This document shows, piece by piece, positions 3,831-34,500 of a stretch of 64,000 nucleotides of DNA. The stretch spans positions 620,001-684,000 of the forward strand of contig NOWV01000015.1 of the NCBI GenBank assembly GCA_003344405.1. The letters are read 5' to 3'. Each line of letters opens with the position of its first letter. Positions within the stretch are counted from its first letter, which is position 1. The translations under genes and the position numbers were made by a program. A model generated the notes under the pieces. It searched no databases and was not told the origin of the DNA. It saw only the letters and a program-made list of their open reading frames with translations. Origin of the DNA: Trichoplax sp. H2. Its lineage: Eukaryota.

Positions 3831-4178
3831 TGAATTTACAATTTTGTATTATTGCTAGCAATCGATAGAAAAGATAAAGCATTGAAGATTTGACTGAAAA
3901 CTTGGTCTTTTGTATGAGTGTCAAGAATTGAATTTCCGTTGCTATAAAATTTTAATAATGTTACTGCAAACTTAATTTAATTATTCATTCCCCACAATCG
4001 AATTTCACATACCTTTATAGTGGGCATCAACTTGATGATATCCAACAAGATTTTAAGCTGTTTTAATGGTATCACGGAAAGATTGATTGCGATTACTTAA
4101 AAGTCTTAGGATAGAATTCATCCTTCTCCTTTTTATCTACTTTGATAAAATTTTAATCGATGTTAAAACAATTAAGTT

Positions 4179-7100: not shown

Positions 7101-10100
7101 TGAAATTAGTTTATTGTCACCTTTACATGCAGGTAGCCTGTGTTTACGTGTACAGCACCCTAGTTTATATAAAAATTGTGCTAAGCAATGAGTTGTTTGA
7201 GCTCTTTTTATTATTTGAAATTGGTTTATTATCACCTTTAGGTCTAGCTAGCCTACATTTTATGGTGTATTATTTTTACGTATATAAATTGTACTGAGCA
7301 ATGAGTCAAACATTTTTAGCTATTTAAAATCGGTTTATTGTCACCTTTACGTCTAGCTACTCTGTTTTTATAGCACTTTAATTTCGATAAAGCTGTGCTA
7401 AGCAACGAACTGAACTCGCTTTACTATTTAAAATTGGTTCATTATCACCTTTATGTCCAGCTAGCCTGTATTCATAGCGTTTTAATTTCGATAAAGTTGT
7501 ACTACGTAAGGAGGTAAACTTATTATAATATTTGAAACTGGTTATGATCACATTTAATTCTAGCTAGCCTATATTTATAGCATCTTATTTTCGATGAAAT
7601 CTTACTAAGCAATGAGCTAAACTCATTTATTATTGAAATTGGTTTTATTGTCTTCTATAACTCTCGACTTATTACACATTTATGCGATATTGCAAGTTCT
7701 ATTAATAATTATAAGCGTTGACTAATATTGCCAATTTATATCGTATTAATGTATTGTAGATAGATTAACTGATGGATACTTTGGGTCTATTTTATTAGCT
7801 CCTAGTCTAGAGAGTGACGATCTTCCTGAATTACCACCTCATCCAGTAGTTCGTGAGAAATTAGCAAAAGATTTAGTAAAAGCTTTGTTTAGTTTAAGAG
7901 ACAAGAATGGTTGGATTGTGATTCGTGGCTCAGAGGGTTCTGGCAAGACTGTTGTCGCTAATCTAGCCGTAAGAGATGAAAGAACCATTACAGATAACTT
8001 CCCAGCAGGGTTTATTTGGTTTAAAATAGGTAATTTTTCATTTTTTCATAGATATAGTGTATTAGTTCTCGTTTTATGTCAAATAGAGGTATTTATAGCT
8101 CATGGTCAATATTCATGCGTATCTAATTATTTTAAATCAAATAGATACTGTACTTGTAGAAATTCTGACATAAAGCCAAAGTTATTCGATTATCTTAATT
8201 TGCATCATTTCTCGATTAATTATTTCAAGCAGTTTGAGATTTGAAATATCAGCTTGTGCTGTCCATATATTTGTCTATGACTAAAGTATGTATAACCTTG
8301 GCGGAGTGTCCATAATCTAACTGATTGAGTCAAGGCTAACTTACAACTACTTCAAGTCTAAGAATTGATTAATATCTAGTGCATGCTTTGTTGATATACT
8401 ATTAATTAATTAATTATTTGGCATAATTTAATATTTAATCAGCTTGTGTCGTTGGCGTATTCGTCTACACTGAAGTTTATACGAGTTCTTGTGAAGTGCT
8501 TAGGACTTACGTGATTTGAGTTAGTCTATTACTGTAAGCCTACTGATTGATCTGGTGTATAATTTGTTCGTAAAACGATTATTTATTCCATCAGTTTATA
8601 CTATTGACGTGTATCAATGAAGTGTGTAGAAGCTCTTGTAAAGAATTTATGATTTAATTGATTGAGCTAATACATAACTACTGCAAACCAAAGGATTTAT
8701 CAATATGTAGCATATTACTATTCACAGCAATTAGATGTTTTTGAGATCAGTTGACAGAAATAAACATCATAAATATTTTATACAGATTGTCGGTATTATA
8801 ATCGTCAACAATATTCTGTGTTGCCAATATACAAGAGCCTTCTATTCCTTGACTATAGTAGCAGTAAGAAATGGATCTAAAGATTAAAACTTTTTCTTTC
8901 CAGGCTGTACAGATATTAATGAACTCTTAATCAAGGTACAAGAATTTTATTTGATACTCAATCATAATGAAAAACCTCCACCTAGTACTATTGAAACCGT
9001 AATTGAAAGTATACGACTATTAATTGGTAAGTAGACAGTATTGATTGATCGATAAGCTACATATCCTATTGCATGTTCGGAATTAAGCACGTTATACTAA
9101 TCTATTTTTTGCCATGTTTTAATTCTCTGACCCTAGCTGATCAATATTATGGCATGTTACTTATATTGGATGATGTGCGCGACGGAAAAATATTAGAATA
9201 CTTCGATTTGCCCTGTACGAAATTAGTAACAACAAGAGTATCTGCAATATCATTTCAAACGACTAACTATCGCATCAATTTGAGCACAGAGGTAATTTTT
9301 AAATCGACTAGAATGATAATGTAAAGTATTAGTATTGCCAAGATAACCTTAAAGATGCAAATAAAACGTCACTTTACTTTTAACTCGCTCATAAAAATTA
9401 CTTGTACGCATGAATTTCTGATCCCCAATATTCATCAAACGTATACACATGTACTCCAATATCTACAGGATGGATATACAAATTCTGAGGCCGAGAAAGC
9501 ATTTAGTGCTTGGTTTGAAAATGATTTGACCTCTATTACTAGTGATGCAAGCAGTATTACTGAAGAACTGAAATGTGCTCCTATGGCAATAGCATTAATT
9601 GGTGGCAACATCTTGCATGATGATATACAATTTCAAAATCAGTTTAAAATGAACGGAAGCTCTCTTGAAAATGGTTATGCAACGAAATCAGTAAAATCCG
9701 CTAAAGTCGAAAAAATAAAATTTGCGTTAGGCAAAGCATTCGATACCGTCGACGTTGAGTTAGCTAGTAAATTACGGCAATTGGTTACTTTTCAAAAATG
9801 TCCAAAGATTCCATTAAATCCATTAAATGTTTTATGGCAACTTAACGATGGACAAGTAGAAAATATTATGAATCAATTAGCTAAGCAAAGTTTAGTTTTA
9901 ATTACAAAAAAACGACGAGATAAGTAAGTAAAAATTCAATTAATTCAAAGGCTAATCCTATAATCAGCGATACCCGTATTCAGTTGGACTAGTTTGTTAT
10001 TTTACTTTTGGGTGTAGGAATAAAATGAAGAAATTTTCAATTTTCGACCATACAAATGAATGATTTAATATCCTTGATTAGTCTTTTGAGGTTCGAATTG

Positions 10101-13100
10101 TAACTGACTATCTTTAACCTTTTTATTTCTACTTTTAGTCAATTACCAATCTATGAATTACATGATATAGTCATGAACTATCTAGTCGAAAAATCAACAA
10201 ACTTAATGGAAATGCATCAGTCTCTGATTCGCCAGTATGAGGATAAATTCAATGGCGATTGGTTAGCTATCATGGACGATGAGTATATGCGCGATCATTT
10301 CATCTATCATCTACTACAAGCTAAAGAATATGATAAAGTCATGTCGATTTTAACCAATTTAGAATGTTTGGAAGTAAAGTTACGAGCTACATTAATATCT
10401 AGGGTATTGAACGACTTCCTTCAATGTCGTTCGATATTAAGCAAAGAGGTAAAGATCTGCTTCAGTTTTTTATTAGACTGCAGTATTCTATGTTTTGACC
10501 ACTATTCGTCTTGCTACGAGTACGCGTATATTACTTGTTCTGATAGTATAACATTTTCAAGAGTTATTGAACCGAACGATTTAGGCTTTAATGAAAGTTT
10601 AAATCTGAATCAGTTAAATAGTTATATTTAGGAACTTTATAAATTGGCATTTTATAATTTTATCACTATATGATATTCATACTGCTGATAGAAATGGTAT
10701 TCCATAGTACTTTACTGTAGATATTTATGAATACTGATCTTTCGCCTTATAACAGGAATTAAAGATTTAAAGTTAGATCCTATAAGTTAGATCCTATAAA
10801 AGTGATATTCTAGTAATTCAGATCTCTTATTCTGTGTAGAAAGTTTATAAGTCTAAACTTGTCATCATCCTGGACACATGGCTAATTATGTATAACAGTA
10901 AATTTAAAAACTATGATTGCGTACGATTATAGCTACTAAACTGCAGTTCTGTCATGAAATCCTTCTACGCTAACAAAGTTATAAATAGCAATTAGGTGTA
11001 CTTGCTCTATTAATTATAAAATGAAGTTGAAATAGTGGTTTAAATTCATGAATTTTAACCTTTTTTGCTTGTAATTATTTATATTGGTCTAGAACTGGGA
11101 AGCGATCAGTCAATATTACCAATTTGTTATTTGTAACGGTAACATCTACAATATTAATCCTCAGCAAAGTATTATTCAAATGGCCTTGAGTAAGCTTGGC
11201 TGGCCTGATATTTACGATAAAGCGGAAAAATTGGCAAAGAGATATTGCCAGGAATCACTATATTTTAAATGGAGGTAAGATGTTATCAAAACCGCCATTA
11301 GATAAACTGTTCGTCGTCAATTCTAACAGCTATAGCCTATTTCAAACCACCTGAGTTAACTTGTGGCAATAGCAAGATTAAAAATCAGCAGCAATCCATC
11401 ATCCTATTACTTTGATCATTTGTCGTAAATTGCTTATTAATTGATCCAAGCTGAGCTTTAAAGTTAATACTACAACTTTTTCTCTATTTTTTAATCGATA
11501 GCAACAATCATCAATACGATGTTACCGATCAATCCATTTCATCTACGGAAATCCATAACGATCGAATAACATGTTGCAGATTTTCACATGATGGCAGCAA
11601 AATTGTATCATGTTGTGATGGAGGCGAAATTAAGGTTTGATAGTGTCATATTCTCAATTTATTTATACAAATTTTAATCGATTCAGTGACAATTATCCTG
11701 CGTAGAACTTTAAATTTAACTAGAGTTCTTCCATCTCATAAGGTCTGGGATAGTTTATCCTCCGCTGTATTAATTTCCATTAACTGTGGCCACAGTGATC
11801 GAATAACCCACTGTTGCTTTTCACCTAATGATAAACTCATTGCCACATCATCGTGGGATCACTCTGTAAAGGTAAATTGTTTATAATACTATAATTATTT
11901 TAAATAAGCGAACTAATGTTTAAGATTTCGTAATGAATAATACTGATGCTGTGAGAGAAAATAAATTCACTTACCGGAATTATTTACTCTGATACATTCC
12001 TATCGTAGTCTATTATAACTAATTGCTATCAACAAGAATGTTGTTTTGATCATAATCATCAGAATGATCAGAGCACTATCATTAATCATTTTCTCCGATG
12101 GCCTTATCATGGCCTGCAACGTAATTTTGTATCTAGATCGTTTTAATGATCATAGCATTTGATCGATTTCCCTAATAGCTTTATTGTAAATTATTATGGC
12201 ATCATGTTATCTAGATCATCAAAATAGCATTTTATTCATGAATTCCTTCGATGGTCATTTAAACCTAGAATATAAACTTGTAAAACTATTTATTGTAGAT
12301 TTGGGATGTCTATACCGGGAAAATTGTATTTAAATATGAGAGCCATTTATTTGCTGTTAATTGGTGTGAATTTTCCATGGACGGCGAAAAAATAGTTTCC
12401 TGTTCCGCTGACAAATTAATTAAGGTTGATATAATTGAGTGTATCATTTTAGAGTTTGCTTATATATTATTTTTATCAAACGCAACATGATTTTGCGTAA
12501 AGATGAATGTAAACATAAGAAACCATTTGCCTATTTTCTGATATTTATCGGTACCCTTTATGATTTGGTTTAGATATGGGATAGCAGAACCGGTAAAGAT
12601 CTTGTCATTTGTCGTGGCCACAGCGGTGGAGTTTTACAATGCCGTTTTTCCAAAGATGACAGAAAAGTCGTTTCTTGTTCATCTGACGAATCTTTAAAGG
12701 TAGAATTGTACTATAATGCTGCTTGTTTTGTGTAAACTTATCGCTATGCTAAATCCTGTTGATAACATAGTGAGTTAACAGCGAAAGGATATACGGTTTA
12801 ATATTAACAGAAACACCATGTAATACTGTAGATTAGTTGACGGAATTTCATAGGGATAACTCCGATATACTCTCAGGCTTCCTAACATGGATGGCTAAAG
12901 TATCGTTCTGTGTTATGAACCCTTAGAAATGATGATACAAATAGTAGAATTTGAGAGTATTCAGCAATTCCATCATGATATTTTTAGATCTCATAACATT
13001 TGGCTTTAGCACGGTGTATTTAAATTATTAGAATGATAACTGTCTAATCGTCGCAGCAGTAGAAAAATAGTCCCTAAGAACATTAATCGCTCTCTTTGGT

Positions 13101-16100
13101 TTCTATTCTACCATAAGATGTGGGATACCAGCAATGGCAAACTAATTTTCTCATGTCGTTGCCCTCATCGGGTTTCCGCCTGCTCATTTTTCGATGATTG
13201 CAATAAATTAATGTGCATCTGTCGAAACACAGTATGCATGTGGAATGCTCATAATGGATCATCACTAGGCCAATTTTATTGCTCGGGAGAAATTACAGCG
13301 TCCGCCGTTAGCTTAGACAGTAAATTTTTTGCTCTGTGCGTTTACAATGTCTTCAAGAAGAAAGATATTTCTTTACAAGTAAGGAGTAACTTATGCACTA
13401 AACTATTGTAGCTACTTGCATTAAATCAGCTGTGGTAACCAATCATTTCGATTAGAACCTGTAGTAATTGGAATAAAACTACTAATATTTACCAAGAGTT
13501 GTACTTTCATCCGTTCTTTCTCCTAGGTATGGGATAATAAAAAGAAAAAATTAATATCTATCTACTACGGACACTCGAATAATATTTATAGTGTTCAATT
13601 TTCGCCAAATGATCAAACTATTGTTACTGCTTCCTATGATAAGACCATTAAGATATGGCACCGTAATAAGAAAAAATTAAATCGCGCCGTTCAAGTTAAG
13701 AATAATTTACCCAGTTTAGAGTTATACGAATGCAAATTTATCGAAAACTGCCTTGTAGTTTATGCGGTACATGACGAAAAAAATCGATTAAAGGTAGGTT
13801 ATATGGTCCGGAGTATTTTGCTTGATTCGTAGGGAGATAATTATACCTCTTACCAAGATATCACCGATTCTGTTAAAAGGAAGTTAACAACTTTTACTTT
13901 ACCATCATTGGATGAAATTTCTGTTATTCATTAATTGCTATACCTCAAGTACGGCCTGATCATTTCTATATAATTATCCACGTGTAGAAATTACAATTTT
14001 CAATAATTTATTGAGTACTCGATGTTTGCATTGATTAACTACCAGACCAGTAATTAAAACATTTTGAAATTGCAACAGTACAATAATATTTATTTATCAT
14101 TAACTTTTAATGTGTCGGCTTAAAAATGACAGCTAACCCTTAAGCAATCTTAAATTTAGTTTCCAATGCTTAAAATGATAGCGAATCTTCCTAAAATTAT
14201 AGTTTAAATAACATTTTCCACTTCCTTTTGAAAAGTCTAAATTAGAAATTACAATAATATATTCATCTTTTCTTGATATATCCAGTTTAGCTAACTATTA
14301 GCTATTCAATATTTTTGATATTAAAACTTTCAATTTGAATTTCCCATGACTTAATGAATCTTTTACTAATTTGTCCATTAATTGCTAGCAATATTTTATC
14401 GTCGCACTACTGCGTTAGTAAGACCTATTGTCATTGCTTTTGAAATCTATTCCACTATCCTGCTTTTAGATGTATGCTGGAACCGACAAAGAGTTTAAAT
14501 TAATCTCAAAGTATAGCACCTTTGGCCATAGAATTACCGCAATCTGTATATCAAATAACGGAAAGCAAGTTGCAATAGGTTTTAGTGAAGCTGGTGGAGT
14601 ACAGGTAAGAGGAGATGTGAACCATTTTTAACTAAGAATTTTATACTTATACAGGTAAAATTGCCTATCTGCAGTCCTTTACTTAGCAAATTCATAACGT
14701 CTATTATAGATAAATATCTTAGCATTTTATTACTCTCTAGTTATTATCCGCCAACGACATCAAGAATTGCCTATGGCATGTTAAAGGAAACTTGTGCGAG
14801 ATGACGTGTATTACGTTAATCAAATTTAGCAGCAATGATAACAATTTGCTTGTTAAAGATGGCAACCGGCAATTATTTGTAAGTTGTATCATTTATCTTA
14901 GTTCTATGGATTGAACAGATTAGTTAGAAAGTCAACTTAAAACATCAAATTAATTTTGAAATGGGTTAGGTCTTAAGCTCGACCGGAGCTGTACTCTTTA
15001 AGAGTGGTAAAAATCATGGCGATATCACCGGTTGTGCGATATTTCCAACTGGCCAAAGAGTTCTTGGTTGCTATGACGAAAGTTTTAAAGTACGTTATCC
15101 TGTCATTCTATTTATTTTCTTCTTTAATTTTGCTGGAAAATAAGATTTTATAAAATGCCTTTCCTTCTAAACTAATTCGTAATATTTAATTGTTCTTAAA
15201 TGAATTATTCTAGATTTGGCATTGCTATGACGTAAGCCAAGTTGTCACTGTTAGAGCGCATAACGATATTATTGCGCATTTCGATATCTCTTATGACGAA
15301 AATATGCTAGCAACTCTCTCCTTTGACAAGATAGTCAAGGTGAGTCGTCAAGTCTGCTAATATTCAAGCTAAATCATAAAACTGTAAAGTTTTTGCTAAA
15401 ATATTGCAATATATCTACAGCACATTATATAGAGGAGTTCCAAGTTCAATCAAAACGCATGCAAATTATAATACTTTCTGCTAATTAAAAGTTTGCCAGT
15501 ATAACTCCTATTGGACGATACTATATCTGCAAGATCAAGGATCAGAGCATAGAATTACATAGATTTTCACTGAAAGTATACAGAATTAACAAGTCTTATA
15601 TAAAATATAAAATACTTAAGCTAAATCATAGGATGTTAAAGTTCATATTTAAACATGAATACTGTACCGGTACCAAAGGATTCTATTATCGCACTCTGAA
15701 TCCACTGTATATAAGAGAGCTGAGTTAAAATGTTCATAAAAGCTTTTTAGCCTTTATTAAATAAAAATATATTAAAAACAATTATGCTATAACCTATCAC
15801 ATATAGAAACTCAGTGCTGAAATATATCTAACACATAGTACCTGCTTAATGCTGTACAGTAATTATATGATTGAAACTTATCATTTTACGGCATATTGCT
15901 CATAGATTTGGGATTGCACCACTGGTTCACAATTGGCTTCCTTAGATCACTACTCTAGCGTTAATACTTGCAAATTTTCAATCAACTGCCAATTTTTGGC
16001 CACTTGCTGTGTTGATGGTTCAGTTAAGGTAACGATGACCTATAAATAAGTACGTTAATGTTCATACGATATTATTATTTATCCTAATTTTGAGTATGCA

Positions 16101-16777
16101 GAAACTTTAAAGGTATAACTTTATTCCAATACTTAGATTAGCTGCCTATACTGTATTGTGTGATTTGTCATTTTATGAATGTAAAGTAAAAGTTGACTGA
16201 TTTTCATATCCTTTCTGTTTCGGATACAAATTAATAATACGAAAAGTAGAACTGTTATTAAAAATAATTCATATAGAGGAAATTTTAAGAGTTGAATGTT
16301 TTTAATGTTACGATGATAGCTTAACAGAACATTTAGCCATCAAATTGATGTAAGGTTGAAACTTTAAAAATTGAAAAGGTCTTTCTTCTCAATTAGATGT
16401 GGAATGTTCGGTCTGGAAGATTGCGATACCGATTTCACGGCCATACGACCCAAGTTTTAAATTGTTATTTCATGCAAGACGATAGAATTCTCTTAACTGT
16501 AGGTGATAGTTTAGCTTGGTGGCAAATTGAAGATGAAGAATTAATCCAACGCTTCCCATTATATGGTAATGCATCGATGGCTTATTACGCTGATGATATG
16601 AAATCATTAGCTACAACAGATGATAAAGGGTATTTTTATTTTCTATCTCAAATTGTACCTAAAAATGAAGCGCCACGACGGCTATCCTTCGATCGACGAT
16701 TGTCATTCGACCGTCGAATATCATTTGACAGACGAATATCGTTTGATAAAAAAAAGGAATCATGTATAATTTGTTAG
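4179..16777 (+). CDS. APAF1: Apaf-1-like apoptosome scaffold: CARD - NB-ARC - HD1/WHD/HD2 - WD40 propellers, ~1302 aa. Exons: 4179-4527, 7760-8029, 8904-9026, 9137-9291, 9469-9923, 10139-10448, 11093-11274, 11502-11634, 11743-11871, 12299-12424, 12574-12699, 13118-13378, 13527-13793, 14470-14604, 14741-14878, 14970-15089, 15214-15339, 15906-16028, 16397-16777
   Basis: N-terminal CARD (MDELQRKAIIDHWDRLVEEL...IDYLVADRII), Walker A GSEGSGKT, Walker B LLILDDV, sensor I KLVTTR, CAPMAIALIG (GxP region), LHD motif, many GH...WD repeats. All introns are GT-AG and phases join into one frame (3909 nt). Confidence 0.93.
6670..7655. repeat. Degenerate tandem array, ~9-10 copies of a ~105 bp unit, in Apaf-1 intron 1
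   Basis: Core tttgaaattggtttattatcaccttt...ctagc...tatagcacctt..tttcgataaa.ctgtgctaagcaatgag recurs at ~6786, 6889, 6997, 7099, 7214, 7322, 7427, 7531, 7634. Confidence 0.88.
8245..8705. repeat. Diverged intronic tandem repeat, ~3 copies of 150-190 bp
   Basis: atcag(c/t)tt.t...gtcta...aag(t)...tata...ttg...ag....tgattgag recurs at ~8248, ~8438 and ~8590. Confidence 0.5.
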
Positions 16778-19610: not shown

Positions 19611-21202
19611 TAGTCAAGGATAGTAGGGATAGTAGATATAGTGGGCGGATTAATAAAGTGGAATTATATCAAACTAACATAGAAAATGCAGGTTCATGAA
19701 ACTCAACTGCCAAATCAAATTATTTAAAGCTTAGGCGAGTTAATATGCACTATCGTAGATGATAACACAAAAGAAGACCAGAAATGATATGTGATGTATG
19801 GTAAATTAATACAATGTACAATCAAATATCTATAACTCAATAATGAAACATAATATGAGGATTGTGGTATGATGTAAGATGGCTTACATTAATATCGATT
19901 AGATATTTTCAATTTATAATCGAACCTAGATAGGACTAGTGAGTGTTATGACGGTTATGTAGTTTTGATAGCTTACCAGTCGCGGTTCGATCATGAACAA
20001 GTTACTTAAATTTAGCTATAATGTTATAATAGATTTTCACGCCATTGGACCATGTGTATCGTCCACGTTACCATCACACCAGTGGATCGAAATTGCAGTT
20101 AATGGGTAAACGAATACCGTGCAAAGAATAATTAATTTACATGCACTCCGTTTTTATAAATATCAATTTAACTACCGATATACGGTAAAAATGGAGGTAA
20201 TTTTATAAAATTGATGATGCTATCCAACCTGGCATGCTTAAATCATCTAAATCGTTTATATTTAATGCATTTAGAATCATTTGATTCAGATATATATTAG
20301 CTATATCATCAATCAACATATGCGTATAAATACCTTATAAGTGACACGTTAAAGAGTTAATAGCTATACTAGCAGAGTAAGACATCATATAAGATATTAT
20401 ACCAATATGTACTGTAGATAATTAGCTCATTTAGCAGAATTACAGTATAATCATGAACGAAGTTTTAGGCCAAGATCATGACTTAGCTTGTAATTTTAGA
20501 GATGTGGGTTGCCAAATAATGAATTGCAATTTACTGTACGTTCTCACTATTTTTATATGCATTATGTGCGTATACAACAAGAATTCGTACAGTCACAGCG
20601 GATATACTATAAATAAATATAGTAAATGTATGTGTAGTCTATTCAGATAATTTGGTAGTATCTACCGGGCCAAAATAAATAATTATAAGCATTTACATAT
20701 ATAGCTTTATTCTATATTAAATGCTGCTAGATTTATCAATGTATTAAATAATTAATACAAGTGTAAGCGCATCTGGATAGTAAAATTGAGAAATATTTGA
20801 AGATCCAAAAGAACTGAGCGGCCTTTAGTAATGATTCATAAGCTATTTAGTAGGCTTCCAGCTAATAATTTAAATAAGATGATATAAATCATATTTTGTA
20901 TCAAAACATTGTAATTTCACTTTTTCAAAATCACACGGGAAAAAATTAAATGAAGATTGGCTTTGTTATAATAAGCATATTGCGTATAACATTATCGTGA
21001 CAGTTAAGTTACTGAGTTAAAATAATAGCGTATCTAACTGATTTAACTACCAGTGACTGCAAAAACTTGATCTGTTTCAACTAAAGTACAGAAAGAATTT
21101 AAAATAAATTTCAACTGTAGGATTTGACTGTACTATTAGATAAGTCAATCCAAATATATTACAAATTGCAATCTGCAGCACAAAAAAAACTTTGAATACT
21201 GG

Positions 21203-24200
21203 TTATTCACGCTGTAAGAGTTTCGTTCGCTTCTTCTCCAATATAATATCATTTCTGTTTATCATTTTTAAAGCAATCTGCAATTCATTAAGGCTCGCAT
21301 TTGGCTGTTTCGTTTTGTACCACAAATTAAGTAATTGCTTCGCTTGGTTATATACGTGATCGCGATTTTGTTCCTTGATAACCTCAACATCAATAGCTGG
21401 ATCTAGCACCGTTGCTAATTTTATCCAATCTAAACCAATAGAGCTTGCAATAGAATGAAAATAATTTCTAGGATCTGCTAAATATGAGTGTGTATATACA
21501 TCACAGTTAGTCTTTAAATTTTTTAATGGCGAATAAGCTATGATATAAATCCACAATAGTTTACTGTTAACTAGCTCAAACGTTTCAATCGTGATTGGAA
21601 TGATTTGTATCATTATTTACATAATCACAATATGAATAAAATAGACGATAGCTCGTATGCTCATTAGAGTATGTTTATTTAAATTACTTCACAGCTATTG
21701 ATTATATTTAGTATTCAAACTTCTTAAAAGAAACAGTATGGAAACTGGTTTCACCTTTATCATTCGCGTCTATCCATCGCTCTATGGGATTGTAAGGAAA
21801 TTTTAGATTAGTAATCGTAAGAAGTTTTATCGAAACGGAGCAGCAACGCTACATACTGAATTCACGTATACAGTATATAAATACTCTGTAAATTTACAGT
21901 CGTATTTATATATGAGTTTTTAATTTAAATAGATTATACAGGTTCCTTTTATTACTTGCTTTTTATGTTTTCTAATGTTATACCATTATTCATACTAGCA
22001 TACGTGAAAGATAGTGTAAAGCTATGGAGTTAACGTATTCTACTCTTGTGTTGCTCATATTCTCATATAGTAACATTTTACTTGCTTATTTTAGTTCTTG
22101 CTATGCAATTACTATTGATAAAATCATAGTTATCGTAACAGTAGTTTAAAGATTTTATATAAGGAAACCCGAGACGCAAAGATTATTTGCTGGTTACTGT
22201 TATTATCAAAAGATGTCGAAGTTACGCGAATCATCATGATTATCTATAGAAATAATGATACAGATAGATCTTAAATACTTACCCATCCATAACTTTTCGT
22301 CATAAACCATCCAATCGCCAAGAGATTGACTTGCAAATCGCATTCTACAATGTTGACACTGAATCCAATTTATATCTCCCGCCTTATATTTATCGACAAT
22401 ACTCGTTTGCTTGCAACATTCACTGCATTTAATGTAAAATCGACAACTAGCTCCTCGAAATCTTATCATTCTTTTATCCACTATCGACATTAATCTATTT
22501 TTAACAACATCTTGAGGCCGGTTATGATATATAGAATTCTTAACTTTATCTATAACTGGCTTGGCAATAATTGATCTATTTATTTTCTGAAAGCAATATT
22601 GTAATCCTATATAAGATTCCTCTTTCTTGACAATGAGATAATGATCATCATCTGCTAGATAATATTTAGCACATTGATAATATAGTTCTACATCAGTATT
22701 ATTCCATTGTTTTAAGCATGATGAAAGTAGACAGTAATAAATTCCATCTGGGATATAAGGAATATCTTGACTGTCGTATCCGATATAAAGCCAATCTGAT
22801 ACATGATATTTTGATAAATCAAATGGCTTAGCATCATCTCTCAATAAATATGGAACAAAATATTCATATTCTACTGCACTACATGTATTGCCTTCTTCAT
22901 GTCTAATGGCACATATAATATCATACGCCTCCATTAGATTCAATATTGACTTTTTACTATTTTCATCCAAATTAAATTTATCGATAGCATAATCGATGTA
23001 ATTTCTTGATAATTTTCCTGTTTCACTGGCTTTTTGGTATTCATATCTCACTTGTAGACTACCATCTAGATGATCTTTTAGTTGAATGATTGCACGAAAT
23101 ATATTTAATAACCAATCGACATTAGTTATAACAATTCCTGAATCGCCTACTTTATGGCAAAATATAACTTCTCCTAAATCATGTAAGTACATTAGCATAT
23201 CTCTTAATTCATCATCACTTTCGTACAATCCATACTCTTGAGCTAAGTATTTTATTTCTTGCACTGTCATGATATTATTCACTTGAGTAGTTCTTATTAG
23301 ATTAATAGTACGAGATATCGATTGATTGTTATGCTTATGTAGAGATGCGCTTAATATTGTAGCCATAATGTACCATCGAATAGGAACAGGATTACGAATA
23401 AATGGTAACGATTGTACAAACGTTTTAATAACGTAATGTAAATGAAGACAATATTGCTGACGTTGCTCCACTGTCGATGGTCTATTATCATCAGGGTCGC
23501 AATTAAAAATTATACCAGAAGAGTAGATATGACTCTTATAAGACGGTATAGAAGATATCAGCTCTCTAACAAATTGTTTAAATCGACGATGTCGTTCTTC
23601 TTCATGTTTAATGCAATCGCTATGGGAAGCTACTAGAATAATTATAGGTAATGAGTATTGTGCATGGTCATCGTTGACGTTAACGTCAATTTTACTTTGA
23701 TTACTGTGGCCTCCTATAATTGATGTTAACCATTCTTGCATAGCCTTTAAATATGTCATTTTAAGTACTTGTCCATCTCTTGTTAGCACATTAGCGTTAA
23801 TATCTTGATTAATGTTAAATGTGAGAATATATATACTATTAGCAGACATGAATGGATGATGTGTAACATGATAGATTGCGTGACCTCCGAAATCCCATAT
23901 TTTAATATATTGGTTATTATCACGATTATTTTTGTTTTGGTTTATGATTGATGAACAATAATGCTCATGTAAGCTAATTACAGGCTGAGATTGAGTTTGT
24001 ACCGTTTTTGACGATATAAGAGCTCCTACATCATCGATAATACCTATAGGAGAATGTGGTTTATCTTCGAATTGATTTTCCTCAGATAGATCATCCATGC
24101 TAATTTGTTGATCTATGATACTGGTATCCGTTGTTTGCTGACTGATATTTTGCTGATTCTCTGCTGTTACTTCTGCTAATTGTTCTATGACTGTTGTCAC

Positions 24201-25821
24201 TTTATTATGTAATATCTGATTGAAATCACAAATTTCCAAATTATGAATATTATAAGATTCAGTCTCTACCATTTTATGAGAGTCTTCAGCAACTCGTGTT
24301 GGTGATTGATTGCTAATTAACACTTGTTGAGTAAATAATTTGATAATAGATGATTTACCAACATTACGAGGACCAACAAACATCCCACGAATCAAACTAT
24401 TGCGGCATTGACCTTGATCTAATGCTTTGATATATGCATTGTAATATTTCTTTTGTTGTAAAGCTATAAAATAACAAAATAAAATACTATATTTAATGAA
24501 GAATTACTTAATAAAGTCATACCAACCATAACAATTCGATTAAAGATTTACCTTTGTCTTGAGCTTGTTGATTACTGTTGTCATGTGGGTTGTTATTGCT
24601 GATGTTATTATTTTCCGGTGGCGTAATCTTTATTATACCATTTCCCCAGAATAGCCTAACAAAGCCATCGAAAGCTCTTTTAGCTATTGATGTTGACGGC
24701 TGTAGGTTGGATTGCTGCCATCGTATAATAGCTATGGTATCTCTCATCTTTTTAACACTGGAATGATTTTCACCTAAGACTGATAGTTTTATGTTTAGTG
24801 ACTTCTCATACATAGAAAGAGCCTCACCATAATTGCGTTGATCAAAATAGACATTCCCCATATTGTTATAACATTCTGCAACATTGAGATGATTGTCACC
24901 AAGGACTGACAATCGAATTTTAAGCGATTTATTATACATTGAAAGGGCCTGTTCAAGCTTACCCTGATTCCTATATACAATGCCCATGTTGTTATAAGAT
25001 TGTGCCACATGGGGATGGTTGTGGTTAAGGGCTGACAATCGAATTTTAAGTGACTTTTCGTACATGGAAAGAGCCTCGTCATGCTTTCCTTGTTTCTCAT
25101 AGACGACTCCCATGTTGTTATATGACTTCGAAATATCAGGATGGTTTTGGCCATGAACTGATATTCGAATTTTAAGGGACTTGCTATACATAGAAAGGGC
25201 TTCATCATATCGGCTTTGCTTCTCAAAGGTAACTCCGATATTGTTATACGATTTGGCAATATGAGGATGATTATGTCCAAGGACTGATAACCGAATTTTT
25301 AGAGACTCGTCATACATATCAAGAGCCTTATCATATTGACCTTTAAAATCATAAATTCGTCCAATTTCATGATAAGAATTGGCAATACGTAAGTCTAGCT
25401 TGCCTAAGTATTTTAATTTCATCTCCAAAGATTTCTTACTATCTTCTAATGCTCCATTTAAATCACGCTGTGATGTCTTCAGCTGACCTTGTCGGTATAA
25501 AAATTCAGCCAGTCTGACTGGATCCTGCAGTTTATTAGCCAGATATTTTCCCTTAGCAATCAGCTCCCTGGCTTTAGTCCACTCGTATTGCAATGTATAA
25601 ATGTGACAAGTATTAAGATAAAGATCGCATAGGAATTGATCTATATCAGCGAAAGTATTGGGTATTGATTCAATTTCATTAATAGCTTGCATGTAATAAC
25701 TTTGTGCTTCTTTCAAATTGTAAGCTGTCAGGCATTTCTGACCTTGTGCACATAGAGATTGTATCTGATGAGGAATAGTACTCGCTCTATGACAAAATTG
25801 ATCGGCGGCCATATATTCCAA
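21203..25821 (-). CDS. Roco-family protein: TPR array - Roc GTPase - COR - CxxC..CxxC - Death domain, ~1250 aa. Exons: 25821-24552, 24463-22283, 21781-21755 (27-nt microexon), 21477-21203
   Basis: 42-aa KLC/NPHP3-type TPRs. Roc: YIKALDQG..IRGMFVGPRNVGKSS (G1), SPT (G2), IWDFGG..YHVTHHPFMS (G3), IILVASHSD (G4). COR: PVPIRW, LMYLHDLGEVIF, VITNVDWL, YFVPYLL, IPDGIYYCLL. Death domain: IASSIGLDWIKLATVL...QAKQLLNLW...LQIALKMINRNDII. All three introns are phase 1 GT-AG and the total is 3753 nt in frame. Confidence 0.9.
24765..25395 (-). repeat. Five tandem 126-bp (42-aa) TPR units within the Roco gene, preceded by more divergent TPRs
   Basis: Units of the form PHIAKSYNNIGVTFEKQSRYDEALSMYSKSLKIRISVHGQNH repeat five times. 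Confidence 0.92.
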
Positions 25822-26419
25822 TTTAGTAATAATTAACTAGCGAAAAAGTTGTAGAGGTTAGAGGCCTTGTAACGTCTGCACACATTGATTCCTAACATCA
25901 ATAGAACATTGAAAGAAATGAAATTATATCTAAACTATATATCTAAATGTTATTGAAATATTTATTTAATTCTAGATCCATCAATCTTTTGCATGCACAA
26001 ATAATCATGCTTCAATAAAATTACAAATACAAATAGTATAATATAAAGGTTGTTAGGTACAGCACGATGGAAAAATTCTTAAATAGAAAGATCCACTTGT
26101 GATTCGTATACACGTACAAATGCAATTTCAGTTACCCTTACAGATTAATGATTCTAGACTATTACCAAAGATAAAATACTGGCTAAGAATTACCTTTACT
26201 AGCAAATTGGAGTTCTTTTCAGTCAGAATAGTTATTTATACGAATCATTACAAACTGCACACTAGCGGTGATGTGAGAGAATAATCAGTACCAAATCAAA
26301 TATTTATTTTAATACTTATACAAATTAATGTAATTAAAGTACTACAACTGATAAAATGGAGGAAAAAAGAAATAGGATATGTAATATACTCAGTATTTAA
26401 TATAAATATTGACATTAGC

Positions 26420-31500: not shown

Positions 31501-34500
31501 TTCATTAGTAAGTGATATTTACTTGGATATGTAAAGTAGCCTAAGATAGAATAAATGTACTTATTAGGTACTTTATCGATATAACATTATAATGTAGCAT
31601 TAGCGAACTGTATCTTATTAATATGATGTAATAAATTGTACAATACATCAGCAAGTAGTAACCATGTTTAAATCAGCTCAAGATTAGGGTAACTAGACTA
31701 TAGTACCTTTTAATTCGGGATTAAGTGTCGAAATACTCGTATATTTTATTCGTTTAATTCTTTTGGATAATGTCGATTGCAATTTAGACATAGCTTAAAT
31801 AGATAAAGTTAACGCCATTAATAATGACAAGCATTATCGCAAAATAGCCATACAATCTTAATTACTAACCTTTAAGAGGTATTATTTCCGTTAAAATGAG
31901 TCTTTCCATAGTATGTAATTTACGACTTTTACCGCATTTTAGCCAAGATATACAGCTGGACTTATTTTTATCTGAATATCATAGCATAATGTCAATATTA
32001 TGCCATCTAAAATATCGCATTATCATCCACTTCGACTACTAACCCATACTTGAATTTTGAATAAAATCCTCTTGAACACATTCTTTACAAACAGTAAATC
32101 CACAATATTTACAGGTCCAATGAACATTAAATATAGAAGTTCTACAAACATCGCATAGTTCTCGAAATCCATCAACGGACGGCTTGATATAAATAGAGTC
32201 TAAAGGAATCGCAAGTTCATGTAATATTGTTATGGATGAGATCAAAATGTACATGATCGCCTAGTAAACATCTAATAATTTATTTACTCACTGCTGTATG
32301 CATAATAATCAAGAATTGAACACGCATACTTCTACCTTTATCCCCTTGCTTTATAGCCTGCAGTTCGTCCGCTAATATTGTTAAAAATATTTCACCAGTG
32401 CATTGTAAAATGTATCTGGAGATCAATTTTTCACATTTTTCCCTCTTTCCTGAAGATTGAATTGAAGAAAAACACTGAGATGGAATTTTATTACTTAAAA
32501 CGCGATCTAATTCATCCTGATTCGAAGTAGAGATTGATTACAGGATTACCATTTTTTCCCGGTAGCCATATATTACTAATAGTACTGTTTTTATCTAAGC
32601 AGAATTCACGAGCGTTCCATTTGCCTGCAAAGGATAGCCTAGAATAACAAAACGGATAAATGCAGCCAGAATTTAAAAAACATAGGTTAGGACGTACTGA
32701 GACTTGGTAAGATTTTAAATATTGCATCTCCTTCTTATTAGCTAGCTTAGCAGAAATTACTTACAATCGGAAATTGAGGAAGCGGCAGCAATTATCTTCT
32801 ATATCTGAATTATCGTCTTGGAAAGAACCACAATCTAGGCAGCGTGGCAAGTATTTAACCAATTGATTGCAACTACAGGGCTGCCATAAAATAAACGGTT
32901 ATAATATGGATAATTACGAATGTATATACAATCATTATCAAGCTAACATTAATCCAGAACTTTTTTAGTAATGAGATATACCTGTGGCGTTAACGAACCA
33001 TCTTTTGGTAGAGATTTTGGCATAGCTTTAAATGCAAATTTTTAACATCAACTATTATACTCCGCTTTTAATACGAATATCGATTGTTGAATTAGCGTAT
33101 AATCGATGCCAAGGAGATACTATGATTGTAAAAATGATAGTATAACTTACTTTTCCGTTTCTTTACAGAATCCGTAGATTTAACTCCATTATTAAAGTCT
33201 TGTTTCCCAGAGTGATTTGGAGGTATAGGTGATAATGCGCTCGTAGATACTTCCGCCCAGGATTCTGCTTGGATGGCTTTGGAAACATTTAAGCAAGATT
33301 TAGGTAAGGAATCTGCTTCAGGTTTCGACCAAGAATCCGTAACTGGCAAGGTCGTACGCATAGCGAGAGTTTCAGTAAGGGATTTAGGTGCTGCTTTTGC
33401 CTGATGCTTTGTAACTGGTAGAGCTTGAGGCCCTATCGGAAGCGACGTAAGTTGCTTTGAAGACGATGAGCTCCGAATTGATGTTAAATCTTGATTCCTA
33501 AAATTATCTGATTTTAAATTCATAATTTTTTTCTTCTTTTTTTTTGATTGATATTCAAGACAATTTAGCTCAAATTGAAATTTATCGATTTCTCTCGTTT
33601 CATGTGGCAAGTCTATCGGCGATTCTTGAGCATTATATGCGTAATCAGAAAGCGTAGCCTTAGTGTTCACGTTGATGGCGGATAGATCTTCTGCTTTAGC
33701 TGGATCGTTACCTGATTTTTCAACATCAGGTGGCGGAAAATTTTCATTGATATCTTCTAACGCTGCCGTTTTGCAGTCACCTGAAGAATTTCTTCTCGCT
33801 TCATCTGGTAAATTTTTCTGCGATTCTTGAGAATTATATGTATGAGCATGAAGCGTAGCCTTAGTGTTTACATTGGGGATCGGTAAATCTTCTGCATGAA
33901 CTGGATCATTATCTGATTTTTCAACATTAGCTGGTGAAAGATTGTCATTGGAATCTTTTGACGCCGCCATTTTAGAATCTTCTGAAGAATTCTTATTTTC
34001 CGGCGGTAGACTAGTCATTTGCACTATCTTTTCAGATTGGATTGGGTTTATATCCACGGCATCCGTATTTTTAGATGATTTTGTTTCACAATCAAACTTC
34101 CTTCTACGTTTTCTTCTTGGTTGTAATAATCTAAGAGCATCATTCCAATTACTGGGGGTAATAGGATCCAATTGATTCTTCTTGGTTAGCAAGAATGAGT
34201 GATCTTGATCATTGCATGAAACGCTATTGAGTAAATTATTCGTAGGTGATGATGATAATGTGGTAGTTGGCGTAGCCATAACTTTAGAAGTAGGGATCTC
34301 GAGCTCTAAGTGATTATTATTTGAATGCATGTCGTCATAATTACTGTTAGGGAAAATACCATTTTGTCGACTTTCAGATTGAGTAACTAAACACAATTTA
34401 ATCCAATATAGATTAATGTTGCATTAGTAAATTGATTCGTTCACTGATTTGAATCAACTCAAAATGTGGAGACAATACCAATTTAAAGATTTACGACGTG

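What the first reader, a model, noticed from the sequence alone, without database searches (positions are those of the whole stretch)
21203..25821. TPR-Roc-COR-Death domain protein with NLR-like sensor-switch-effector logic built on a Roco GTPase
Seen: three separate ORFs join through phase-1 introns and a 27-nt microexon into one ~1250-aa protein with N-terminal 42-aa TPRs, Roc-COR, a CxxC-CxxC motif and a C-terminal Death domain, with no kinase. Known: Roc-COR-DD is the C-terminal module of DAPK1, while LRRK and MFHAS1 use LRR/ANK repeats. Expanded Roco families with unusual domains have been reported for Trichoplax, so the architecture may already be catalogued, but I know of no functional characterisation. 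Inference: ligand binding by the TPRs may drive GTP-dependent COR dimerisation and cluster the Death domains, making a GTPase-based innate-immune or cell-death receptor.
Basis: partly seen in the sequence, partly recalled or inferred. Interest (0 to 1): 0.8.

Follow-up and report, generated by a model that had tools for sequence, protein, structure and literature searches.

The report
Known placozoan TPR-Roc-COR-Death gene
This is a real, spliced Trichoplax gene for a GTPase-switch protein with a repeat "sensor" head and a death-domain tail, but the gene model and its family are already public and its proposed immune or cell-death role remains untested.

Summary
Three minus-strand ORFs and a 27-nt microexon join into one CDS. 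From its first ATG (25812) this CDS is letter-for-letter the deposited 1247-aa Trichoplax sp. H2 protein RDD45494.1, named "Nephrocystin-3". Contigs of one public run (X5) carry all three GT..AG joints. The last joint uses an acceptor 3 nt downstream, a NAGNAG site.

Domain calls are solid:
- TPR_12 at 7e-101, Roc at 5e-13, COR-A at 4e-11 and Death at 3e-11, with no kinase.
- The Roc-COR model matches LRRK1, LRRK2 and CtRoco.
- The last exon models as a death fold, TM 0.85 to the ankyrin DD.

- A conserved four-Cys zinc-ribbon-like motif follows COR-B.
- About 150 residues separate the P-loop from G3.
- Both features are shared with Roc-COR-Death proteins of cnidarians, echinoderms, a hemichordate and amphioxus. 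The TPR heads were found only in Trichoplax.
- The Death exon has a different history from the neighbouring COR.

The Trichoplax Roco expansion was catalogued in 2014. The NLR-like mechanism is inference, and its "GTP-driven dimerisation" step runs opposite to the one characterised Roco cycle. Interest is low to moderate.

The parts
24552..25812 (-). CDS exon 1 (ATG 25812-25810): N-terminal helical region plus TPR array; ends in a phase-1 donor
   Evidence: ORF; Pfam TPR_12 7e-101, TPR_10 4e-58 and TPR_NPHP3 3e-36; in-frame TAG 9 codons upstream of the ATG; identical to P0001 residues 1-421
24757..25512 (-). Six 42-aa TPR units in perfect register (protein residues 101-352; the first is degenerate, five are canonical)
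   Evidence: 42-residue register printed
24464..24551 (-). Intron 1 (88 nt, GT..AG, phase 1)
   Evidence: Splice sites; joint 24463/24552 in an X5 contig with 61 letters on the shorter side
22283..24463 (-). CDS exon 2 (2181 nt): Roc, COR-A, COR-B and a zinc-ribbon-like motif in one exon
   Evidence: Pfam Roc 5.3e-13 and COR-A 3.7e-11; AF2 pLDDT 82, pTM 0.83; Foldseek LRRK1 8e05 2.5e-15, CtRoco 6hlu 2.1e-13, LRRK2, MbRoco2 4wnr
23502..24413 (-). Roc G domain (exon-2 residues ~17-320): P-loop GPRNVGKS (24351-24374), G3 DFGGH, G4 SHSD
   Evidence: Motifs; family conservation; PDB sequence hits 3dpu, 4wnr, 6hlu and 6xaf over the G3 region
23946..24224 (-). Insertion inside Roc between switch I/beta2 and G3: long helix, disordered Q/D/E-rich stretch, helix (exon-2 residues ~80-172)
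   Evidence: AF2 helices 80-109 and 159-172, with pLDDT<50 at 109-155; 153 residues between P-loop Lys and G3 Asp, similar across the family; least conserved segment
22872..23480 (-). COR-A (exon-2 residues ~328-530)
   Evidence: Pfam COR-A; model and fold hits. Boundaries are approximate.
22458..22871 (-). COR-B (exon-2 residues ~531-668), assigned by fold only
   Evidence: Foldseek alignments of ~730 columns to Roc-COR structures; most conserved segment among paralogues, 61-69% within the close group; Pfam COR-B not called for this protein
22311..22454 (-). CxxC-x19-CxxC zinc-ribbon-like motif: two beta-hairpins with Cys knuckles (exon-2 Cys679, 682, 702, 705)
   Evidence: Motif; Cys kept in 45, 45, 43 and 36 of 46 aligned family rows; strands 673-678/685-687 and 699-701/708-710. 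Metal binding is inferred.
21782..22282 (-). Intron 2 (501 nt, GT..AG, phase 1)
   Evidence: joint 21781/22283 in X5 contig record 18
21755..21781 (-). 27-nt microexon (ERWIDANDK), the linker between the Zn motif and the Death domain
   Evidence: One 552-nt X5 contig holds exon 2, 27 nt, then exon 4; present in the deposited model; similar peptide DRWKDTKDK in paralogue P0002, but not in P0003
21475..21754 (-). Intron 3 as observed (280 nt); the deposited and reader model ends it at 21478 (277 nt). Tandem NAGNAG acceptor.
   Evidence: Joint 21474/21755 skipping 280 in X5; sequence tag|cag| at 21480-21475
21203..21477 (-). Last CDS exon: Death domain and stop codon (TAA 21205-21203)
   Evidence: Pfam Death 3.1e-11, 43.7 bits against a cutoff of 22.6; PDB sequence hit ankyrin-1 DD 1e-6; AF2 pLDDT 93; Foldseek 2yvi TM 0.85, rmsd 1.1 A, and FADD 6aci_H TM 0.83

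Best explanation
Shown: positions 21203-25812 (minus strand) are one expressed protein-coding gene of a placozoan. It is identical to the deposited Trichoplax sp. H2 model RDD45494.1. It encodes a kinase-less Roco-family G protein with this layout: TPR array (six 42-aa units), Roc (with a ~110-residue insertion before G3), COR-A, COR-B, a four-Cys zinc-ribbon-like knuckle, a microexon linker, and a Death domain.

The gene belongs to a placozoan expansion of a wider invertebrate Roc(insert)-COR-Cys4(-Death) subfamily. In the sample examined only the Trichoplax members carry TPR heads. The Death exon has been exchanged among paralogues.

Inferred (about 0.4): it works as a nucleotide-gated adaptor or sensor.
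- The TPR head holds a protein partner, or folds back on Roc-COR.
- The Roc nucleotide state changes the COR-mediated quaternary or conformational state. By analogy with C. tepidum Roco, it would be a dimer when GDP-bound or empty and would open or become monomeric on GTP.
- This would expose the C-terminal Death domain for homotypic recruitment of other death-fold proteins, feeding cell-death or innate-immune signalling.

It resembles an NLR in logic but is not one.

The confidence given (0.55) is for the whole statement. The identity and gene-model part alone is about 0.95, and the mechanism part alone is about 0.4.
For: Gene and splicing:
- The model is identical to P0001.
- Three GT..AG joints are seen in X5 contigs, one of which spans exon 2, the microexon and the DD exon.

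Domains:
- The Roc-COR model has pLDDT 82 and matches LRRK1, LRRK2, CtRoco and MbRoco2 at probability 1.00.
- The DD model has pLDDT 93, with TM 0.85 to the ankyrin DD and 0.83 to the FADD DD.

Switch probably functional:
- P-loop GxxxxGK[ST], G3 DFGG[Q/H] and G4 [ST]HxD are conserved across 46 rows.

Family:
- 846 relatives at E<=1e-3, and 50 at <=1e-30. Among the latter, every one that was named is Trichoplax.
- 25 of 173 Roc-COR proteins in hand carry TPR, and all 25 are Trichoplax.
- 10 of 10 further Roc-COR-Death relatives scanned carry Roc, COR-A and Death with no TPR. Eight are named, from sea urchin, brittle star, amphioxus, oysters and a scallop; two are unnamed.

Immune or cell-death flavour (circumstantial):
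- Within the 37-member family, Pfam calls Death in 7, CARD in 2 and NB-ARC in 1.
- The DD is the least conserved module among close paralogues: 28% against 69% for COR-B, P0001 vs P0002.
- The DD and COR trees conflict: AU p 2e-20 and 0.013.
- An Apaf-1-like gene lies about 4.5 kb away on the other strand.
- Placozoan NB-ARC NLR-like proteins use TPR or WD40 repeats (PMC6321704, passages).
- LRR-ROCO proteins are published candidate immune receptors in brown algae (PMC11378527, passages; PMC3341825, search listing only).
Against: - No functional data of any kind exist here. There is nothing on expression under challenge, binding partners or nucleotide biochemistry.
- Spliced support comes from 1 of 4 runs laid, with one low-depth contig per joint. 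X6 and one X5 contig show unspliced pieces at the same sites.
- The DD's nearest solved relatives by sequence and fold are ankyrin DDs, which are not classical death-signalling oligomerisers (recalled, not tested).
- G3 has His where 18 of 46 relatives have Gln, and the Roc domain carries a large insertion. GTP hydrolysis, or even switching, may therefore differ from known Rocos.
- Pfam COR-B is not called for this protein.
- The AU groups were named after the trees were seen, and only 11 rows were used.
- An ESM-Atlas lead (score 0.92) points to a molluscan cluster carrying Roc plus TPR_10/TPR_12. TPR-Roc may therefore not be placozoan-only.
Confidence: 0.55

Rival explanations
1. It is a non-immune scaffold. 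A kinesin-light-chain or nephrocystin-3-type TPR head and an ankyrin-type Death domain sit on a Roco switch that regulates cytoskeletal, ciliary or membrane-trafficking complexes, as LRRK-type Rocos do, rather than sensing danger or killing cells.
For: - The TPRs match TPR_12, TPR_10 and TPR_NPHP3, and depositors' pipelines named family members 'Nephrocystin-3' or 'Kinesin light chain'.
- The closest solved DDs are ankyrin-1, ankyrin-G and ankyrin-B (1e-6 by sequence; TM 0.85 by fold).
- The closest folds for Roc-COR are LRRK1 and LRRK2.
Against: - The automatic names rest on the TPR class only.
- FADD, PIDD, TRADD and RIPK1 DDs follow closely in both searches, with TM 0.70-0.83 by fold for FADD, TRADD and RIPK1 and 0.69 for the 2of5 oligomeric DD complex.
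- A multi-copy lineage expansion with CARD, Death and NB-ARC variants and DD swapping is more typical of conflict-driven families than of housekeeping scaffolds. This last point is inference.
Confidence: 0.25
2. It is a pseudo-switch. The Roc domain no longer cycles, because of His at the G3 Gln position and a ~110-residue insertion. The protein is then a constitutive TPR-to-Death adaptor whose Roc-COR is only a structural dimerisation block.
For: G3 is DFGGH. About 153 residues lie between the P-loop Lys and the G3 Asp, against about 40 in Ras-like G domains (the Ras figure is recalled). The insert is disordered at 109-155.
Against: - P-loop, G3 Asp/Gly and G4 [ST]HxD are conserved across 46 rows from several phyla, which argues for selection on nucleotide binding.
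- His and Gln alternate at this position in the family (16 and 18 of 46).
- The insert length is conserved, so it is a family feature and not decay.
Confidence: 0.1
3. The joined model is an annotation artefact: TPR, Roc-COR and Death are separate neighbouring genes.
For: - The 2008 T. adhaerens annotation splits a paralogue into adjacent models TRIADDRAFT_59496 (TPR-Roc) and TRIADDRAFT_59495 (Death).
- Unspliced pieces occur in X5 and X6.
Against: - Contigs in X5 bridge TPR to Roc (61 letters on the shorter side of the joint) and COR/Zn to microexon to DD in one 552-nt record.
- All junctions keep frame and phase.
- There is no ATG-initiated independent start logic for the DD exon.
- The same split T. 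adhaerens pair corresponds to a single 1317-aa model in H2.
Confidence: 0.03

Closest known systems
Trichoplax ROCO expansion (Civiero et al. 2014, PMC4104024); deposited protein RDD45494.1
   Same: It is the same gene family, and for RDD45494.1 the same protein (100% identity). The paper's text and Fig. 1 legend list Roc-COR with TPR, death, CARD, LRR, TIR and AAA neighbours.
   Different: The paper used the T. adhaerens gene set and gave no function. I could not see the figure itself, so I cannot confirm that this exact domain order is drawn there. The deposited name 'Nephrocystin-3' reflects only the TPR class.
DAPK1 (human ROCO protein)
   Same: Both have Roc-COR followed by a C-terminal Death domain. 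The Pfam Roc model is described as 'domain of DAPkinase'. DAPK1 is listed among the four human ROCOs in PMC3995007 (search listing only).
   Different: This protein has no kinase, calmodulin-binding or ankyrin part (no such Pfam hits). It has a TPR head instead, plus a Cys4 motif and a Roc insertion. No DAPK1 sequence was available for a direct comparison.
LRRK1/LRRK2, C. tepidum Roco and M. barkeri Roco2 (solved Roc-COR structures)
   Same: The Roc-COR-A-COR-B fold matches: Foldseek E 2.5e-15 to 1.6e-10, probability 1.00, about 730 aligned columns. The G3 region is similar by sequence.
   Different: Identity is only 10-15%. There is no LRR or kinase. An extra insertion precedes G3, and a Cys4 motif and a DD follow COR-B.
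Invertebrate Roc-COR-Death proteins (Diadema, Amphiura, Branchiostoma, Saccostrea, Ylistrum and others), all uncharacterised
   Same: Roc, COR-A and Death were called by Pfam in 10 of 10 scanned. The long P-loop-to-G3 spacing and the Cys4 motif are shared with rows from Actinia, Anneissia, Amphiura, Strongylocentrotus, Glandiceps and Branchiostoma.
   Different: Their N-termini carry SH2, EH/EF-hand, NHL, an extra DD, or nothing. None of the 10 has TPR. Identity to this protein is 22-28%.
NLR/STAND receptors, including placozoan NB-ARC-TPR and Apaf-1 paralogues (Kamm et al. 2019, PMC6321704)
   Same: Both have a repeat-array sensor of the same TPR class, a central nucleotide switch and a death-fold effector. 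Both are lineage-expanded.
   Different: The switch is a Ras-like Roc GTPase with COR, not a STAND AAA+ ATPase. The domain order is reversed, with repeats N-terminal and the death fold C-terminal. That paper's main text never mentions Roc (0 occurrences).
Brown-algal LRR-ROCO candidate immune receptors (PMC11378527; PMC3341825)
   Same: They are kinase-less Roco proteins with a repeat head, proposed as pathogen receptors and diversified by exon shuffling (search listing).
   Different: They have LRR rather than TPR heads and no Death domain. The lineage is unrelated, and their role is also untested functionally.

Membership tests
Roco (ROCO) family | Ras-like Roc G domain | tested here: met
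   Pfam Roc 5.3e-13, 49.7 bits against a cutoff of 27; fold matches to Roc-COR structures
Roco (ROCO) family | COR domain immediately C-terminal of Roc (COR-A and COR-B) | tested here: met
   Pfam COR-A 3.7e-11, 43.5 bits against 35.3. COR-B is supported only by fold alignment over ~730 columns to LRRK1 and CtRoco; Pfam COR-B is not called.
Roco (ROCO) family | Intact guanine-nucleotide motifs G1, G3 and G4 | tested here: met
   GPRNVGKS, DFGGH and SHSD, conserved in the family. Binding itself was not measured.
Death domain (DD subfamily of the death fold) | Pfam Death above gathering score, and a helical-bundle death fold | tested here: met
   43.7 bits against 22.6; AF2 pLDDT 93; TM 0.85 and rmsd 1.1 A to 2yvi, followed by FADD, TRADD, PIDD and RIPK1 DDs
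Death domain (DD subfamily of the death fold) | Homotypic DD-DD oligomerisation | not testable with these tools
   No assay was possible and no DD complex job was run.
TPR proteins (TPR_12/TPR_10, KLC/NPHP3 class) | Tandem 34/42-residue helical repeats | tested here: met
   TPR_12 7e-101; six 42-aa units in register
NLR / STAND NTPases | Central NACHT or NB-ARC STAND ATPase module | tested here: not met
   No NACHT or NB-ARC hit in any exon or in P0001 at E<=0.1 / 1e-4. It is therefore not an NLR and only analogous in layout.
DAPK family | N-terminal Ser/Thr kinase with calmodulin-regulated segment and ankyrin repeats | tested here: not met
   No Pkinase or Ank hit
Zinc ribbon | Two beta-hairpin knuckles each carrying CxxC, which bind one Zn | tested here: inconclusive
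   CSEC and CQHC lie at hairpin turns in the model. The Cys are kept in 45, 45, 43 and 36 of 46 rows. No family model hit, and metal binding was not tested.

The most novel reading that the evidence does not exclude
Early-branching and invertebrate animals run a second class of intracellular receptor, independently built in parallel to NLRs. In it a Roc-COR GTPase, not a STAND ATPase, is the switch, a repeat array (TPR in placozoans) is the sensor, and exchangeable Death or CARD exons are the output. The conserved Roc insertion and the post-COR Cys4 knuckle would be the family-specific control elements. This gene would be a typical member. Its phase-1 modular exons and DD swapping would be the way the repertoire diversifies.
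Probability: 0.3. Interest if true: 0.7.

Novelty: already known. Interest (0 to 1): 0.3.

Why it matters
If the inferred role were shown, it would mean animals built NLR-like sensor-switch-death-fold receptors at least twice, once on a Ras-like GTPase. It would also give kinase-less Roco proteins, relatives of LRRK2 and DAPK1, a concrete ancestral job in cell-death or immune signalling.

As it stands, the gene is a correctly annotated but misleadingly named member of a family that was catalogued in 2014 and never studied functionally.

- A conserved Cys4 motif after COR-B.
- A conserved insertion before G3.
- The spread of both features across several phyla.
- Evidence that the Death exon moves between paralogues.

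Tried and rejected
- Complex prediction of two copies of COR-B plus the Cys4 part (exon-2 residues 528-726) gave no verdict: score 0.00, controls not run, and the alignment was not used by the tool. It says nothing either way.
- A whole-genome paralogue count was not possible, because no genome is held for this window. The counts given are lower bounds from protein databases clustered at 90% or 50% identity.
- The first attempt to search with exon 2 used the wrong frame and was corrected to 22284-24461.
- Runs X1 and X2 were chosen as likely RNA, but they cover the introns without a break and so say nothing about splicing. X6 shows none of the three joints.
- The ESM Atlas gave only leads for P0001 and nothing for the neighbouring 443-aa ORF.
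- Kaur et al. 2021 (PMC8195603) was checked for Roco-death links. 'ROCO' occurs only in its reference list, and Trichoplax does not occur at all.
- Literature searches found no functional study of a TPR-Roc-COR-Death protein and no description of the Cys4 motif or the Roc insertion. This covers only the held library. The supplementary tables of Kamm 2019 and Civiero 2014, and the latter's Figure 1 image, could not be seen and may list this gene or architecture.
- The separate-genes reading was considered and rejected on the joints.


Full report
**1. What is in the sequence**

On the minus strand there are three long stop-to-stop ORFs, at 24517-25836, 22206-24503 and 21203-21616. In a 64-kb window with about 31-35% G+C, only 13 ORFs reach 120 aa.

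Pfam assigns the ORFs as follows:
- The first is a dense TPR array: TPR_12 7e-101, TPR_10 4e-58, TPR_NPHP3 3e-36.
- The second is Roc (5.3e-13) plus COR-A (3.7e-11).
- The third is a Death domain (3.1e-11, 43.7 bits against a cutoff of 22.6).
- No kinase, ankyrin, LRR, NACHT or NB-ARC family appears at E<=0.1.

**2. The gene model**

They have GT donors and AG acceptors and give 3753 nt in frame with one terminal stop.

The true start is ATG 25812, and an in-frame TAG lies nine codons upstream. From that ATG the product is 1247 aa and identical, residue for residue, to P0001. P0001 is the deposited Trichoplax sp. H2 protein RDD45494.1, named 'Nephrocystin-3'. The window is therefore placozoan, and the model, microexon included, is already in a public annotation.

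All three introns are phase 1, so the Roc-COR exon and the microexon are symmetric 1-1 modules.

**3. Transcript evidence**

I laid contigs of four public runs from three studies on 21100-25900.

Run X5 supports splicing:
- It carries joints 24463/24552 (skips 88), 21781/22283 (skips 501) and 21474/21755 (skips 280), all with GT..AG ends on the gene's strand.
- One 552-nt contig holds exon 2, exactly 27 nt, and then the Death exon.
- Another contig bridges TPR to Roc.

The last joint differs from the deposited model by 3 nt. The sequence there is tag|cag|, a tandem NAGNAG acceptor, and the observed form drops one Ala.

The limits of this evidence:
- Support comes from 1 of 4 runs, with one contig per joint at depth 4.5-5.7.
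- X1 and X2 cover the introns without a break and look like genomic DNA.
- X6 and one X5 contig show only unspliced pieces at these sites.

Independent support for the microexon is the similar peptide DRWKDTKDK at the same place in paralogue P0002. Paralogue P0003 has a different, repeated linker there.

**4. Structure**

Exon 2, with a 46-row alignment, modelled at mean pLDDT 82 and pTM 0.83. Foldseek placed it with LRRK1 (8e05, 2.5e-15), C. tepidum Roco (6hlu, 3dpu), LRRK2 and M. barkeri Roco2. Probability was 1.00 over about 730 columns at 10-15% identity. By sequence the only solved relatives are the same Roco proteins, and the match is around G3.

The Death exon modelled at pLDDT 93. It superposes on the ankyrin DD 2yvi (TM 0.85, rmsd 1.1 A over 81 columns) and on the FADD DD (TM 0.83). 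TRADD, PIDD, RIPK1 and TNFR1 DDs follow. The sequence search gave the same order: ankyrin-1 at 1e-6 and FADD at 2e-3.

**5. Finer anatomy**

- TPR head: it has six 42-aa units in exact register (residues 101-352). The first unit is degenerate.
- Roc motifs: Roc keeps the P-loop GPRNVGKS, G3 DFGGH and G4 SHSD. Across the 46 aligned rows the P-loop, the G3 Asp and Gly, and [ST]HxD are conserved. The residue after G3 alternates between Gln (18 rows) and His (16 rows).
- Roc insertion: 153 residues lie between the P-loop Lys and the G3 Asp, against about 40 in Ras (the Ras figure is recalled). In the model this is a long helix, a disordered Q/D/E-rich stretch (pLDDT<50 at 109-155) and another helix. 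The spacing is similar in nearly all rows, non-placozoan rows included.
- Cys4 motif: after COR-B, CSEC-x19-CQHC sits on two beta-hairpins. The four Cys are kept in 45, 45, 43 and 36 of the 46 rows. I read this as a zinc ribbon; metal binding is inferred.

**6. The family**

A full HMMER scan with exon 2 found 846 proteins at E<=1e-3 and 50 at E<=1e-30. Among those 50, every one that carries a name is Trichoplax adhaerens or Trichoplax sp. H2; the rest are unnamed ENA or Logan records. The first named outsider is an amphioxus protein at 5.6e-27 and 25% identity.

Of 37 close family members, Pfam calls COR-A in 34, Roc in 23, TPR_12 in 17, Death in 7, CARD in 2 and NB-ARC in 1.

I made a local domain table of all 173 Roc-COR proteins in hand. 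It uses self-built profiles and includes a few near-duplicate cluster members. It gives:
- 109 Roc-COR only
- 26 Roc-COR-DD
- 9 Roc-COR-DD-DD
- 16 TPR-Roc-COR
- 7 TPR-Roc-COR-DD
- 1 TPR-DD-Roc-COR-DD
- 5 other arrangements

All 25 TPR-bearing rows are Trichoplax. In H2, at least P0001-P0004 and P0043 share this gene's layout.

Ten further Roc-COR-Death relatives all showed Roc, COR-A and Death by Pfam. Eight are named, from Diadema, Amphiura, Branchiostoma, Saccostrea and Ylistrum. Their N-termini carry SH2, EH, NHL or an extra DD, and none has TPR.

Alignment rows that share the insert spacing and the Cys4 motif come from Actinia, Anneissia, Amphiura, Strongylocentrotus, Glandiceps and Branchiostoma.

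One caution: the ESM Atlas points to a molluscan cluster with Roc (99% of members) plus TPR_10/TPR_12 (85%) at score 0.92. This is an unverified lead that TPR-Roc combinations may exist outside placozoans.

**7. Modular evolution**

Among close paralogues the Death domain is the least conserved module. P0001 against P0002 is 28% identical in the DD, against 69% in COR-B, 65% in COR-A and 51% in the TPRs. Yet P0001's DD is 36-40% identical to the DDs of distant paralogues.

Trees of 11 placozoan rows with a C-terminal DD conflict:
- In the COR tree, P0001 is inside a clade with P0002, P0004, P0013 and P0019.
- In the DD tree, P0001 is across a split supported at 99/98, together with P0003, P0017, P0038 and P0043.
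- The DD data reject the COR clade (p-AU 2e-20), and the COR data reject the DD grouping (p-AU 0.013).

Caveats on the trees: the groups were named after I had seen the trees; the rows mix H1 and H2 models and partial models; P0166 (a near-duplicate of P0043) and P0031 (whose DD lies N-terminal of Roc) were left out.

Together with the phase-1 exon boundaries, this points to exchange of the Death exon between paralogues.

**8. Mechanism**

Shown: this is one expressed gene with the layout TPR-Roc-COR-Cys4-DD and conserved nucleotide motifs.

Inferred: it is a nucleotide-gated adaptor or sensor in which the state of Roc-COR controls the availability of the Death domain.

That protein is a dimer when nucleotide-free or GDP-bound and a monomer on GTP binding (PMC5714945, abstract read). 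PMC11052575, whose title refers to GTP-driven monomerisation, was seen in the search listing only.

A dimer alone would also not give the 5-to-8-fold helical assemblies typical of signalling DDs (recalled knowledge).

The attempt to score COR-B self-association gave no verdict.

**9. Comparison with what is known, and novelty**

The protein meets the tested Roco criteria and the DD and TPR criteria. It fails the NLR criterion (no STAND module) and the DAPK criterion (no kinase).

What the papers say:
- Civiero et al. 2014 already reported at least 17 ROCO genes in T. adhaerens with TPR, LRR, CARD, death, TIR and AAA neighbours (PMC4104024, passages and the Fig. 1 legend; the figure itself was not seen). 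A 2024 brown-alga paper restates this (PMC11378527, passages).
- Kamm et al. 2019 on placozoan innate immunity never mention Roc in the main text. Their supplements could not be seen.
- The idea of Roco proteins as immune receptors is in print for brown algae (PMC3341825, search listing only). ROCO-TIR and ROCO-MyD88 combinations are described for Aplysia (PMC9334734, passages).
- Searches found no functional study of this architecture.

**10. Verdict**

The gene and its family are already known. The function is still only inferred.

Noticed in passing
window 4176-16777 (+): A multi-exon Apaf-1-like gene lies about 4.5 kb from the Roco gene's 3' end, on the other strand. Its ORF pieces hit CARD (4176-4550), NB-ARC (7750-8244), Apaf-1 WHD (9325-9927), APAF1_C (10104-10631) and beta-propeller/WD40 (13040-13411, 16397-16777). 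Kamm 2019 reports many Apaf-1 paralogues in H2.
   Followed up: partly
window 21475-21480 (-): There is a tandem NAGNAG acceptor (tag|cag|) at the start of the Death exon. The deposited model uses the first AG, while the one spliced contig seen (run X5) uses the second, removing one Ala.
   Followed up: yes
window 24803-24963: Summed contig depth jumps about ten-fold or more over part of the TPR exon in three of four runs, against 73-105 nearby in X1 and X2. X1 reads 1026, X2 1269 and X5 353; X6 rises only to 32. This probably reflects words shared with the many TPR paralogues.
   Followed up: no
window 23084: Short contigs in X1, X2 and X5 (two studies) match 23084-23120 and then continue with the same 46 letters, which are unlike the window. 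This could be a paralogue junction or a structural variant inside COR-A (table 7).
   Followed up: no
window 33092-34423 (-): A 443-aa open frame has no Pfam family at E<=0.001 and no usable ESM-Atlas hit, with low recognition. It is unclear whether it is a real gene.
   Followed up: partly
window 54491-56812 (+): Two ORF pieces hit beta-N-acetylglucosaminidase (NAGidase, 2.3e-10 and 2.5e-16), probably exons of an O-GlcNAcase-like gene.
   Followed up: no
P0052 cluster (T. adhaerens TRIADDRAFT_59496 and 59495 against H2 RDD40335.1): The 2008 T. adhaerens annotation splits a paralogue into adjacent TPR-Roc (802 aa) and Death-containing (418 aa) models. H2 has one 1317-aa model. T. adhaerens-based counts of full TPR-Roc-COR-DD genes are therefore likely too low.
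   Followed up: partly
P0003 residues ~1165-1215: In paralogue P0003, the place of the microexon linker is taken by three copies of a ~17-aa unit (QKPRKRQKLHSDSNGQA-like) between the Cys4 motif and the DD.
   Followed up: no
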